From NCBI RefSeq assembly GCF_001306055.1, contig NZ_LGHJ01000007.1, forward strand, positions 30,001-62,000: a stretch of DNA of 32,000 bases, written 5' to 3'. The translations under genes were made by a program, and so were the position numbers. Source of the DNA: Bellilinea caldifistulae (GTDB taxonomy: Bacteria > Chloroflexota > Anaerolineae > Anaerolineales > Anaerolineaceae). Shown piece after piece: positions 30,273-32,000 of this stretch (the first letter of the stretch is position 1; every line of letters starts with the position of its first letter). The notes under the pieces were generated by a model. The model searched no databases. It had not been told where the DNA came from and worked only from the letters and a program-made list of their open reading frames with translations.

Positions 30273-32000
30273 TTATTTGTGACCATTGTTTGATTTTGCG
30301 ATTTCAGGGGCTAAAAAGCCGCGCTCTTCAAGAAATTGAACTATTCGATGAGCATTTTGGAGTGGGGAAGAATTGACCGTTTCGAGGGTAATTTCGGGAT
30401 TAATCGGTTCTTCGTATGGATCATCAACACCGGTGAAGCCGGTTAATTGACCACGACGAGCTTTTGCATAAAGTCCTTTCACATCCCGGCTCTCACATAG
30501 GTCTATAGGAGTATCCACAAACACTTCGATAAATCTTTCACTTCCCACCATTTTGCGAACCTCATTGCGCGCGGCACGATAGGGGCTGATAGCAGCACAC
30601 ACAGCCACACCATTATGCCGCACAATTTCACTTGCAACAAAACCAATCCTGAGAATATTTGTATCCCGGTCTTCTCTGGAAAATCCCAACCCCTTTGATA
30701 AATGAGTACGAACAACATCACCATCCAAAAGGGTGATCTGGCGTCCCCGTTCTAACAACAACGTGGTGAGAATTTCTGCGGTAGTGGATTTTCCGGCTCC
30801 GCTCAAACCGGTAAACCAGATGCAAAAGCCCTGTTGATGCCGTGGTGGATAAACCTGTTGCAAAATCTGGGCTGTTTCCGGACGGGTGAACCAATCCGGT
30901 AACAAAACCCCCTTTTCAAGATAATCCTCTCGAACCTGAGTGCCGGATATATTGAAAACCCGTGCACCTTCAGGAACTTTACTGATTTCTTCGTAACGAT
31001 CTTCATCAGGTAAATAGACCAATTCTTTGAATTCAACTGGAGAAACCCCGATCTCATCTGCGTATTGAGCCAGTAGCGTTTGAGCTTCGTACGGGCCGTA
31101 GAAAGGATTCCCATAGCTATCTTTACCCGGGCCGGCATGATCCCTGCCGATGATGAAATGAGTAGCCCCATAGTTGCGGCGGATGATGGCATGCCATAAT
31201 GCTTCGCGCGGCCCTGCCATTCGCATGGCCAGGGGTAGCAAACTCAATAATGTCCGATTGGGATCATAATAATTATTTACCAAGGTGCGGTAAACCCTTA
31301 CTCGTGTGTAATGGTCAACATCTCCGGGTTTGGTCATGCCCACAACGGGATGAATAAGCAGACTTCCATTTACTTCATCAGCAGCCCGTTTGGTTAACTC
31401 TTCGTGTATTCGATGCATTGGGTTGCGAGTTTGAAAAGCCACCACATTTTCATGGCCCATTTCAGAGAGTTTTTTCCGAACTTCCAAAGGTGAAAGCCTG
31501 AGATCTGAAAAGTCATGGTTGGCAGGTAAGTTAATAACCTTAAGTTTCCCCGAAATATAAACTTTACCCCAATGAAGCATTTCTGAAATCAATGGATGTC
31601 GAGGATCCGTTGTTCCCAAAACAAGCCGGGCTTCTCGTTGAGCATCCCAATGGAAAACCTCATTAATCTCCATGATCGCCAGAGTATTATTCCGTGAATC
31701 ACACAAGTTAATCCGATCGGCAAAGGAGGGCAGGTCTTTTTCGTCAATTGGCAAAGTAACGGGGATTGGAAACAAAGTCCCGTTTTTCAATCGCATTTCT
31801 GTGAGGACCCGTTCGTAATCCTCTTTCCCCATAAATCGGTCTAAGGGGGAAAACGCTCCTACTGCCAGTAATTCAAGATCACAAACAGAGCGGGGGGATA
31901 TCTGGACAGAGGGCAAATGTTTGGATTCTTCTATGAGAGCTTCTCGTTCCTCGCCTTCTGCTAACAAATTGATCAATCTACCGCCAAACGGTGCGATTAG
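30273..32000 (-). CDS. sat/cysC: Bifunctional sulfate adenylyltransferase / adenylylsulfate kinase (PAPS synthesis), N-terminus just off the right edge
   Basis: ATP sulfurylase motifs [13 protein letters not shown] and [11 protein letters not shown]-terminal APS kinase P-loop [11 protein letters not shown] plus LDGDVVR. The frame is open beyond the TTG at 31976 to position 32000 and reads [13 protein letters not shown], the conserved sulfurylase N-terminus, so only a few codons are missing. Confidence 0.9.

What the first reader, a model, noticed from the sequence alone, without database searches (positions are those of the whole stretch)
30273..32000. Dedicated PAPS synthase at the head of the operon plus three sulfotransferases of two families: a polysulfated bacterial glycan
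Seen: a fused ATP sulfurylase/APS kinase is the first gene in transcription order within the window. Three sulfotransferases with intact PAPS-binding motifs lie at 21669..22868, 18129..18860 and 1020..1832; the last two are paralogs that share the RRN....S and YEDL motifs. Established: PAPS-dependent sulfation of bacterial glycoconjugates is known from relatively few systems (Nod factors, mycobacterial sulfolipids, cyanobacterial sulfated EPS). Inference: up to three distinct sulfation sites on one ABC-exported glycan, with a pathway-private PAPS supply.
Basis: partly seen in the sequence, partly recalled or inferred. Interest (0 to 1): 0.6.

Follow-up and report, generated by a model that had tools for sequence, protein, structure and literature searches.

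The report
Sulfated surface-glycan locus, own PAPS supply
A cultured anaerobe from the Chloroflexota (Bellilinea caldifistulae) cannot use sulfate as a nutrient, yet it keeps one enzyme that activates sulfate and three enzymes that attach it, all inside one large cell-surface sugar-polymer gene cluster, so it very probably makes a sulfated surface glycan, a known kind of system not yet described in this phylum.

Summary
The genes are real and intact. They comprise a 584-aa Sat/CysC PAPS synthase (window 30273 to 32027, nine residues beyond the window edge) and three soluble sulfotransferases of two families.

The genome is 99.7% complete. It has no second ATP sulfurylase or APS kinase, no CysH or CysD and no sulfite reductase. 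It has no sulfotransferase of the families searched other than these three. PAPS therefore has no assimilatory route here and is most likely made for sulfation.

In 101 genomes of the same family, APS kinase and sulfotransferases co-occur almost perfectly (31 shared, 32 each). Sulfite reductase appears in only 1 of 101.

One claim fails. Sat/CysC is not at the head of the operon. It lies mid-way in a roughly 53-kb run of 43 same-strand genes, from a priming phosphotransferase to a Wzc-like kinase.

All three sulfotransferases also occur together, packed around Wzm/Wzt, in a genome of another family. Every ST1 orthologue found (six loci) sits directly after wzt.

Clusters that combine PAPS genes, sulfotransferases and an ABC exporter are already published (Vibrio sp. 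KMM 8419). This scan has also flagged similar loci on other DNA about 46 times. This is a new member of a known kind, but it sits in a cultured type strain and is testable. Sulfate in the glycan itself remains unproven.

The parts
30273..32000 (-). Sat/CysC bifunctional PAPS synthase (PUA-like, ATP sulfurylase and APS kinase domains). The ORF runs on to window coordinate 32027; 584 aa.
   Evidence: It is the only Sat and only true APS kinase in the genome. It has no hydrophobic segment.
21669..22868 (-). ST1: a 399-aa sulfotransferase. The catalytic domain resembles TPST and CurM sulfotransferases. A conserved C-terminal alpha/beta domain of about 110 aa follows. The gene lies directly downstream of wzt.
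   Evidence: Orthologues follow wzt in all six loci found.
18129..18860 (-). ST2: a 243-aa NodH-like sulfotransferase, placed between a GT2 gene and an AsnB-like gene.
1020..1832 (-). ST3: a 270-aa NodH-like sulfotransferase and paralogue of ST2.
   Evidence: Its orthologue sits directly upstream of BNR-Wzm-Wzt in L097.
24085..24963 (-). Wzm-like ABC-2 permease.
   Evidence: No Pfam hit. Weak match to galactan Wzm/RfbD, 51 bits. About five hydrophobic segments by a crude scan. Its stop overlaps the start of wzt.
22877..24085 (-). Wzt ATPase with a C-terminal Wzt_C glycan-binding domain.
   Evidence: ABC_tran 75.8 bits and Wzt_C 75.1 bits. The C-terminal domain is 55% identical in distant loci that carry ST1.
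24960..29160 (-). Two BNR/Asp-box propeller proteins (507 and 875 aa), each with an N-terminal signal-like segment and a C-terminal membrane-spanning segment.
   Evidence: An orthologue of the 507-aa protein precedes wzm in L097, L102 and L103.
29208..30260 (-). AT3 membrane acyltransferase directly downstream of Sat/CysC.
18862..21611 (-). PMT_2-like GT-C membrane glycosyltransferase (521 aa) and a GT2 (395 aa), lying between ST1 and ST2.
   Evidence: The order is kept in L097 and L103.
11732..18121 (-). AsnB-like amidoligase followed by a GT4-GT4-GT2-GT4 block, downstream of ST2.
   Evidence: The same order is seen in L096 and L097.
3793..11732 (-). An inserted decoration cassette: CPA2 transporter, adenylating enzyme, carrier protein, three AT3 acyltransferases and a halogenase-like flavoprotein. 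It separates ST3 from the rest of the sulfation module.
   Evidence: It is absent from the compact module in L097.
3..3780 (-). Epimerase and GT2 upstream of ST3, and a GT4 downstream of ST3 that runs off the window. The locus continues to a Wzy_C protein, a second GT-C and a Wzc-like kinase.

Best explanation
The window is the middle of a roughly 53-kb locus of 43 genes, all on one strand (G000:C7:22017-75390). The organism is Bellilinea caldifistulae GOMI-1.

The locus builds a decorated cell-surface glycan:
- A WbaP-type phosphotransferase primes a polyprenyl phosphate.
- Cytoplasmic GT2 and GT4 enzymes extend the chain.
- Wzm/Wzt, an ABC exporter with a glycan-binding C-terminal domain, exports it.
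- GT-C and Wzy_C-type membrane proteins finish or attach it outside the cell.

The sulfation branch is self-contained:
- Sat/CysC converts sulfate and two ATP into PAPS.
- Three soluble cytoplasmic sulfotransferases (ST1, ST2, ST3) transfer sulfate to the lipid-linked glycan or its precursors before export.
- PAP is presumably recycled by the single SuhB/CysQ-type phosphatase encoded elsewhere.

The genome has no PAPS/APS reductase and no sulfite reductase. Sulfate activation therefore most likely serves sulfation only, as it does in animals.

Shown here: gene content, intact motifs and folds, the genome-wide absences, phyletic coupling and conserved linkage.

Inferred: that the acceptor is this glycan, the number and position of sulfates, and the timing of sulfation.
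For: **Identity of the parts**
-.

**Genome accounting (99.68% complete)**
- One Sat.
- One real APS kinase. The other hit is SRP54.
- No NIR_SIR domain.
- The single PAPS_reduct hit is a TtuA-like protein.
- Only three PF13469/PF00685 matches, all in this window.
- No PF03567 match.

**Family sample of 101 genomes**
- APS kinase occurs in 32 and sulfotransferases in 32, with 31 in common.
- Presence and absence go together within five genera: g1, g8, g9, g21 and g27.
- Sat occurs in 12 genomes and all 12 have sulfotransferases. In 9 of the 12, a sulfotransferase lies within 10 kb of Sat.
- NIR_SIR occurs in 1 of 101.

**Linkage**
- The locus is tightly packed, with a largest gap of about 100 nt.
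- Synteny holds in Bellilinea MAGs L007 and L008.
- The module ST3-BNR-Wzm-Wzt-ST1-orf-GT-C-GT2-ST2-AsnB-like-GTs is compact in L097, which comes from another family.
- BNR-Wzm-Wzt-ST1 is kept in L102 and L103.

**Location of the enzymes**
- All three sulfotransferases and Sat/CysC lack hydrophobic segments.

**Precedent**
- PAPS genes with sulfotransferases and an ABC exporter have been proposed as a hallmark of sulfated capsular polysaccharide clusters (PMC11641403).
Against: - No chemistry: sulfate has never been shown in a Bellilinea glycan, and no paper found links Anaerolineae to sulfated glycan synthesis.
- No recognised sulfate importer was found: no SulP, no PiT and no sulfate-binding protein above the cut-off. 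The only candidates are a DASS-family permease elsewhere and an in-locus CPA2 transporter of unknown substrate.
- The nearest solved relatives of ST1 sulfate tyrosine or polyketide intermediates, not sugars.
- Absence calls rest on Pfam models run against a draft assembly.
- In the other genomes with an ST2 orthologue, the APS kinase lies on a different contig from the module. An in-locus PAPS synthase is therefore not a fixed feature.
Confidence: 0.8

Rival explanations
1. Sat/CysC is the housekeeping entry into assimilatory sulfate reduction for cysteine synthesis, and only happens to lie in the glycan locus.
For: It is the single copy in the genome. Fused Sat/CysC enzymes are common across Chloroflexota, often outside glycan contexts.
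Against: - No CysH or CysD-type PAPS_reduct protein: the one hit is TtuA.
- No NIR_SIR sulfite reductase in this genome.
- NIR_SIR is found in only 1 of 101 genomes of the family, and in none of the 12 with Sat.
- APS kinase tracks sulfotransferases in 31 of 32 genomes.
Confidence: 0.04
2. One or more of the three sulfotransferases acts on something other than the exported glycan, such as a membrane lipid, a peptide or protein tyrosine, or the carrier-bound acyl group made by the neighbouring cassette. The product would then not be a triply sulfated polysaccharide.
For: - The catalytic domain of ST1 is closest to tyrosylprotein, CurM and olefin-synthase sulfotransferases.
- Bacteroides couples a PAPS gene cluster to a sterol sulfotransferase (PMC9417993).
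- The locus carries carrier-protein chemistry.
Against: - All three sulfotransferases stay embedded among glycosyltransferases and Wzm/Wzt in L097, which lacks the acylation cassette.
- ST1 is always next to wzt.
- ST3 aligns to a solved 'LPS sulfotransferase NodH', and sources give ST2 homologues the same name.
Confidence: 0.12
3. The 53-kb array encodes two or more separate polymers: one ABC-exported, and one dependent on Wzy_C and the Wzc-like kinase. The sulfotransferases would be split between them, so no single glycan carries three sulfates.
For: - The locus has Wzm/Wzt and also Wzy_C, a Wzc-like kinase and two GT-C proteins.
- In Bellilinea, ST3 lies about 16 kb from ST2, next to the Wzy_C block.
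- In L098, an ST2 orthologue sits beside the Wzy_C/GT-C block.
Against: - No Wzx-type flippase was seen among the annotated genes.
- The genes are continuously packed on one strand.
- In L097, ST3 lies directly upstream of BNR-Wzm-Wzt.
Confidence: 0.2

Closest known systems
Sulfated capsular polysaccharide cluster of Vibrio sp. KMM 8419 (PMC11641403) and the related Cobetia marina KMM 1449 cluster (PMC11766843)
   Same: A polysaccharide locus that holds its own PAPS-synthesis genes, several sulfotransferases, glycosyltransferases, acyltransferases and an ABC exporter. The authors call the pairing of PAPS genes with sulfotransferases a hallmark of sulfated polysaccharide synthesis.
   Different: - Vibrio uses a second copy of cysN/cysD/cysC alongside housekeeping genes. 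Bellilinea has one fused Sat/CysC and no assimilatory pathway at all.
- The exporters differ: Kps type there, Wzm/Wzt with a Wzt_C domain here.
- The Vibrio product has a solved structure. This one has none.
Aquifex aeolicus bifunctional SAT/APS kinase (PDB 2gks)
   Same: The same domain order and length. Match at E 2.5e-239 over residues 33-572. Catalytic motifs of both halves are present.
   Different: No activity was measured here. This enzyme sits in a glycan locus of a genome that has no sulfate reduction.
NodH-type 'LPS sulfotransferase' (PDB 9vki; rhizobial NodH by name)
   Same: ST3 aligns across both PAPS-binding motifs at E 3.6e-5. JGI names ST2 homologues 'LPS sulfotransferase NodH'. 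All are small, soluble enzymes of about 250 aa.
   Different: Sequence similarity is low. The acceptor is unknown. ST2 is barely detected by Pfam (28.0 against 27 bits).
E. coli O9a / Klebsiella O3 Wzm-Wzt-WbdD chain-termination system (from my own knowledge; no paper was read on it here)
   Same: The gene order wzm-wzt-modifying enzyme. The Wzt carries a C-terminal glycan-binding domain. ST1 follows wzt in every locus found, and the Wzt C-terminal domain type co-occurs with ST1.
   Different: - The modifier is a sulfotransferase, not a kinase/methyltransferase.
- Its C-terminal extension is a small alpha/beta domain, not a coiled-coil ruler.
- No evidence shows that the sulfate is terminal or is read by Wzt.
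Bacteroides thetaiotaomicron BT_0411-0416 PAPS cluster with sterol sulfotransferase (PMC9417993)
   Same: PAPS-synthesis genes lie next to a sulfotransferase. In the control runs Bacteroides thetaiotaomicron gave no NIR_SIR match but matched APS kinase and sulfotransferase models.
   Different: The acceptor there is cholesterol, not a glycan. That cluster includes a putative sulfate importer. No glycan assembly genes are present.

Membership tests
Bifunctional sulfate adenylyltransferase/adenylylsulfate kinase (NCBIfam NF004040; Aquifex 2gks type) | Three-domain order: PUA-like, ATP sulfurylase, C-terminal APS kinase, in one polypeptide of about 570-590 aa | tested here: met
   Pfam domains at residues 2-157, 166-382 and 390-539 of the window fragment. 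Full ORF of 584 aa.
Bifunctional sulfate adenylyltransferase/adenylylsulfate kinase (NCBIfam NF004040; Aquifex 2gks type) | Score above the curated equivalog cut-off | tested here: met
   864.8 bits against a cut-off of 669. PDB 2gks at E 2.5e-239.
Bifunctional sulfate adenylyltransferase/adenylylsulfate kinase (NCBIfam NF004040; Aquifex 2gks type) | Catalytic motifs in both halves: QTRNPxHRxH and GRDHAG for the sulfurylase; P-loop GxSGxGKST and DGD for the kinase. An intact kinase P-loop separates it from the regulatory APS-kinase-like domains of fungal and Thiobacillus enzymes (motif knowledge is from memory). | tested here: met
   [29 protein letters not shown] and LLDGDVVR read directly in the translation.
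Bifunctional sulfate adenylyltransferase/adenylylsulfate kinase (NCBIfam NF004040; Aquifex 2gks type) | PAPS formation from sulfate and ATP | not testable with these tools
   Needs an enzyme assay, or complementation of E. coli cysC and cysDN mutants.
PAPS-dependent sulfotransferase superfamily (Pfam Sulfotransfer_3 / Sulfotransfer_1) | Family model above the gathering score | tested here: met
   ST1 scores 114 and 57.6 bits, ST3 scores 45.8 and 36.3 bits. ST2 only just passes PF13469 (28.0 against 27) and falls below PF00685 (21.3 against 22).
PAPS-dependent sulfotransferase superfamily (Pfam Sulfotransfer_3 / Sulfotransfer_1) | A 5'-phosphosulfate-binding loop (basic residue-x-G-S/T-S/T) after the first strand, and a 3'-phosphate motif (R-x-x-x-x-x-x-S) | tested here: met
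   - ST1: RSGTTLL and RDPRDVALS.
- ST2: ERDGSTY and RRNQVKAVVS, invariant in 25 homologues.
- ST3: RSRTGSNFL and RRNILRTHLS, aligned to the same motifs of PDB 9vki.

PAPS-dependent sulfotransferase superfamily (Pfam Sulfotransfer_3 / Sulfotransfer_1) | Sulfotransferase fold | tested here: met
   - ST2 model: pLDDT 92.7, and all listed PDB matches with E <= 0.001 are sulfotransferases.
- ST1 model: pLDDT 91.8, with target-normalised TM-scores of 0.6-0.69 to TPST, CurM and OLS sulfotransferases.
- ST3 was not modelled.
PAPS-dependent sulfotransferase superfamily (Pfam Sulfotransfer_3 / Sulfotransfer_1) | Sulfate transfer to a defined (glycan) acceptor | not testable with these tools
   The acceptor is inferred from gene linkage only.
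ABC-transporter-dependent (Wzm/Wzt) glycan assembly pathway | Wzt ATPase with a C-terminal Wzt_C domain, and an adjacent ABC-2 permease | tested here: met
   - Wzt: ABC_tran 75.8 bits and Wzt_C 75.1 bits.
- The permease is weaker: no Pfam hit, 51 bits to galactan Wzm (cut-off 380), about five hydrophobic segments by a crude scan, and a stop that overlaps the wzt start.
ABC-transporter-dependent (Wzm/Wzt) glycan assembly pathway | A priming polyprenyl-phosphate sugar transferase and cytoplasmic glycosyltransferases in the same locus, with no Wzx | tested here: met
   - TIGR03025 EPS sugar transferase at 397 bits (cut-off 295.6).
- Twelve GT2 or GT4 genes.
- No flippase family among the hits. 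This is an absence by Pfam scan of the listed ORFs only.
Sulfated polysaccharide biosynthetic cluster (Vibrio sp. KMM 8419 kind) | PAPS-synthesis gene(s), sulfotransferase(s) and an exporter within one polysaccharide locus | tested here: met
   The criterion is as worded in PMC11641403.
Sulfated polysaccharide biosynthetic cluster (Vibrio sp. KMM 8419 kind) | Sulfate ester shown chemically in the product | not testable with these tools
   No chemical data were found for Bellilinea or any Anaerolineae.
Assimilatory sulfate reduction pathway (considered and rejected) | PAPS/APS reductase (CysH) and sulfite reductase in the genome | tested here: not met
   The only PF01507 hit is TtuA. PF01077 has no hit, while it matched 11 of the 14 control genomes.
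WbdD-type chain-terminator / Wzt-CBM export checkpoint (considered) | A modifying enzyme encoded next to wzt that co-varies with the Wzt C-terminal domain | tested here: met
   - ST1 follows wzt in G000, G009, L007, L008, L097, L102 and L103.
- L009 lacks ST1 and its Wzt C-terminal domain gives no match.

WbdD-type chain-terminator / Wzt-CBM export checkpoint (considered) | A coiled-coil ruler on the terminator, a modification placed on the non-reducing terminus, and binding of that modification by the Wzt domain | tested here: not met
   The ST1 extension is predicted as a beta-alpha-beta-beta-alpha-beta-alpha domain, not a coiled coil. Terminal placement and binding cannot be tested here.

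The most novel reading that the evidence does not exclude
ST1 may be a chain terminator. It would put a sulfate on the non-reducing end of the finished polymer, and the conserved C-terminal domain of Wzt would read that sulfate as the export signal. This would be a sulfate version of the methyl-phosphate or Kdo caps of E. coli O9a and Klebsiella O12.

BNR-Wzm-Wzt-ST1 is an invariant four-gene core wherever an ST1 orthologue was found. This Wzt C-terminal domain type (55% identity across families) was seen only together with ST1.
Probability: 0.2. Interest if true: 0.7.

Novelty: new member of a known kind. Interest (0 to 1): 0.4.

Why it matters
Anaerolineae are core filamentous members of anaerobic digesters, sediments and granular sludge, and their envelope chemistry is almost unknown. 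This locus predicts that a cultured type strain (GOMI-1, JCM 13669) carries a sulfated, heavily acylated surface glycan.

It also shows that in this family sulfate activation has been kept only for sulfation, as in animals. About a third of the sampled genomes have it, always together with sulfotransferases. This gives a simple genomic marker for producers of sulfated glycans: APS kinase plus a sulfotransferase, without a sulfite reductase. It also offers a tractable organism for testing such glycans, including the idea of sulfate as an export cap. Sulfated microbial polysaccharides are of interest for biofilm cohesion and as alternatives to heparin-like products.

Tried and rejected
- **Housekeeping role for Sat/CysC.** Rejected after genome searches for PF01747, PF01583, PF01507 and PF01077 and after identifying the weak hits as TtuA and Ffh.
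- **Own promoter for sat/cysC.** The 94-nt upstream spacer has no sigma-70-like or terminator-like site on the coding strand. The 'head of operon' claim was dropped.
- **Sulfate importer.** SulP, PiT and Sbp/CysP searches were negative or below threshold. Only a DASS permease elsewhere and the in-locus CPA2 protein remain. This stays unresolved.
- **Contexts of ST2 homologues.** I replaced it with the genome search plus fetch from genomes.
- **Fold of the ST1 C-terminal domain.** Foldseek matched only the catalytic domain, so the extension is unassigned.
- **The sulfotransferases of about 400-450 aa in the family sample.** I first took these for ST1 orthologues away from wzt. The class-level search with ST1 itself showed that true orthologues are rare and always next to wzt, so I did not use the earlier adjacency count.
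- **Other sulfotransferase families.** PF03567 gave no hit, but its control was silent, so it is uninformative. PF17784, PF19798 and PF09037 were not searched genome-wide.
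Full report
**What is in the window**

All substantial ORFs lie on the minus strand. In transcription order, Pfam and NCBIfam give the following:
- Sat/CysC
- an AT3 acyltransferase
- two BNR/Asp-box proteins (875 and 507 aa)
- a Wzm-like permease
- Wzt (ABC_tran plus Wzt_C)
- ST1
- a PMT_2-like GT-C
- a GT2
- ST2
- an AsnB-like enzyme
- a GT4-GT4-GT2-GT4 block
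- a CPA2 transporter
- an adenylating enzyme with a carrier protein
- AT3 acyltransferases and a halogenase-like flavoprotein
- an epimerase
- a GT2
- ST3
- a GT4

Sat/CysC:
- The full ORF is 584 aa. Its ATG lies 27 nt beyond the window edge and follows an AAGGA site.
- It exceeds the equivalog cut-off of NF004040 (864.8 against 669 bits).
- It matches the Aquifex bifunctional enzyme 2gks at E 2.5e-239.
- Both sulfurylase motifs and the kinase P-loop and DGD motif are present. The kinase half therefore looks catalytic rather than regulatory.

The sulfotransferases:
- ST1 has textbook PAPS motifs and a TPST/CurM-like fold.
- ST3 aligns with the solved 'LPS sulfotransferase NodH' 9vki across both motifs.
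- ST2 is marginal in Pfam. It is nevertheless a clear paralogue of ST3 (27% identity, E 6e-24). It belongs to a large family with invariant ERDGST and RxNxxKAVxS motifs. Its model (pLDDT 92.7) matches only sulfotransferases in the PDB.
- None of the four sulfation proteins has a hydrophobic segment. Sulfation should therefore be cytoplasmic.

**Organism**

- The closest Sat/CysC relatives are Bellilinea and other Anaerolineales MAGs.
- A protein identical to ST2 lies on a contig of 3,698,317 bp. This is exactly the published scaffold size of Bellilinea caldifistulae GOMI-1 (PMC4574363).
- The genome is 52.8% G+C, but the locus is 35-46%. The lowest values are in wzm (34.8%), ST1 (35.7%) and wzt (37.6%). 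Low G+C is usual for exchangeable surface-glycan loci.

**Not the head of an operon**

- Upstream of Sat/CysC, on the same strand, lie a NadE-like gene, AsnB, an acyl ligase, a carrier protein, a B12/radical SAM enzyme, a membrane-anchored GT2, a hexapeptide acyltransferase, a SIS-GAF protein, a GHMP kinase, an epimerase and a WbaP-type priming transferase.
- Only beyond that comes a 460-nt gap, followed by unrelated 5-oxoprolinase and proline genes.
- Downstream of the window the array continues through a Wzy_C protein, a second GT-C and further glycosyltransferases to a Wzc-like kinase.
- The locus therefore spans about 53 kb (C7:22017-75390), with no gap above about 100 nt.
- The 94-nt spacer before sat/cysC has no promoter-like or terminator-like site.

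**Is the PAPS supply private?**

The genome is 99.68% complete. It contains:
- one ATP sulfurylase;
- one real APS kinase, the second hit being Ffh;
- no NIR_SIR sulfite reductase;
- no CysH or CysD, since the only PAPS_reduct hit is a TtuA-type tRNA thiolase.

The three sulfotransferases are the only PF13469 or PF00685 matches in the genome. Half of that is true: it is the only copy. But it cannot feed cysteine synthesis, because the reducing steps are missing.

A single SuhB/CysQ-type phosphatase could recycle PAP. The sulfate importer is unidentified.

**The same logic across the family**

In 101 sampled genomes of the same GTDB family:
- ATP sulfurylase occurs in 12.
- APS kinase occurs in 32 and Sulfotransfer_3 in 32. 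They share 31 genomes. The only sulfotransferase-only genome has a sub-threshold hit.
- NIR_SIR occurs in 1.
- Within five genera some members have both functions and others have neither. The pair is therefore gained or lost together. Related genomes are not independent, so I give counts rather than a test.
- In 9 of the 12 genomes with Sat, a sulfotransferase lies within 10 kb of it.
- Wzt_C exporters are nearly universal (95 of 101), and sulfotransferases often lie within about 15 kb of one.

**Are the three sulfotransferases one system?**

- Orthologues of ST2 and ST1 are rare: 7 and 4 of 401 genomes of the class.
- In L097, a high-G+C genome of another family, all three occur in one compact array: ST3-BNR-Wzm-Wzt-ST1-orf-GT-C-GT2-ST2-AsnB-like-GT4-GT4-GT2-GT4.
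- L096 shows the ST2 half. L102 and L103 show BNR-Wzm-Wzt-ST1.
- In Bellilinea, ST3 has been moved about 16 kb away by an inserted acylation cassette that L097 lacks.
It does not prove the acceptor or the number of sites.
- In the other genomes with ST2, the APS kinase is on a different contig. An embedded PAPS synthase is therefore a Bellilinea-genus feature, not a rule.

**ST1 and Wzt**

- Every ST1 orthologue found follows wzt directly: G009, L007, L008, L097, L102 and L103.
- The Wzt C-terminal domain is 55% identical across families in those loci. L009, a Bellilinea MAG locus without ST1, gives no match to it.
- ST1 carries a conserved C-terminal alpha/beta domain of about 110 aa and unknown function. 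It is not a coiled coil.
- These facts fit, but do not establish, a sulfate cap read by Wzt.
- Only four papers in the library mention both Wzt and a sulfotransferase, and none describes such a cap. One notes an unexplained sulfotransferase-domain ORF right after wzt in Aeromonas salmonicida (PMC4483657).

**Comparison with what is known**

- Polysaccharide clusters that combine PAPS genes, sulfotransferases and an ABC exporter are published, with product structures, for Vibrio sp. KMM 8419 and Cobetia marina.
- Bacteroides couples a PAPS gene cluster to a sterol sulfotransferase.
- I found no paper that links Anaerolineae or Chloroflexi to sulfated glycan synthesis. The one metagenomic study that looked reported no sulfotransferase in its two Chloroflexi MAGs.
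- This scan's own notes list about 46 similar loci on other DNA, including an Anaerolineae 'supercluster'.

**Verdict**

This is a real and well-supported new member of a known kind. Its main added value is the clean genome-level demonstration that sulfate activation here serves sulfation only, in a cultured and testable strain.

Noticed in passing
window 10443-11732 (-): A CPA2-family cation/proton antiporter homologue (TIGR00932, 141 bits, below its cut-off) lies inside the glycan operon. Its start overlaps the stop of the upstream GT4 by 1 nt. The genome has no recognised sulfate importer, so its substrate is worth asking about.
   Followed up: partly
G000:C7 whole contig (window = C7:30001-62000): The whole 98.6-kb contig is 39-49% G+C against 52.8% for the genome. 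The wzm-wzt-ST1 core is the lowest at 35-38%. This suggests a large low-G+C island or exchangeable region.
   Followed up: partly
window 24960-26483 (-); L097:798-2369, L102:4910-6343, L103:6240-7517: An orthologue of the 507-aa membrane-anchored BNR/Asp-box protein (40-44% identity) directly precedes wzm in every distant locus that carries ST1. BNR-Wzm-Wzt-ST1 is thus a conserved four-gene core of unknown logic.
   Followed up: partly
window 16268-18121 (-); L096:8069-9907, L097:10377-12251: The AsnB-like enzyme always follows ST2, and is itself followed by the same GT4-GT4-GT2 genes in other families (43-49% identity). Another first-reader note says it lacks the N-terminal Cys nucleophile.
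   Followed up: no
window 21669-22526 (C-terminal third of ST1, residues about 288-399): A confidently predicted alpha/beta domain (beta-alpha-beta-beta-alpha-beta-alpha). It is conserved in length across 936 homologues but diverges quickly (24-46% identity against 50-69% for the catalytic domain). The PDB matches found were sulfotransferase chains of about 220-390 aa, matching the catalytic domain.
   Followed up: partly
G077:C5:79943-80935 (family sample): In another genus a stand-alone APS kinase gene lies immediately downstream of a Wzt_C-bearing gene. This is a second way of wiring PAPS synthesis to a Wzm/Wzt exporter.
   Followed up: no
G000:C8:59485-61272 (L095:1501-3288): A 595-aa DASS-family anion symporter homologue is the only candidate sulfate transporter found by the family searches. 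It scores 142 bits, below the TIGR00785 cut-off.
   Followed up: no
family sample: Wzt proteins with the C-terminal glycan-binding domain occur in 95 of 101 genomes of this family, often in several copies. ABC-exported, probably end-capped glycans therefore appear to be a general envelope feature of these bacteria.
   Followed up: no
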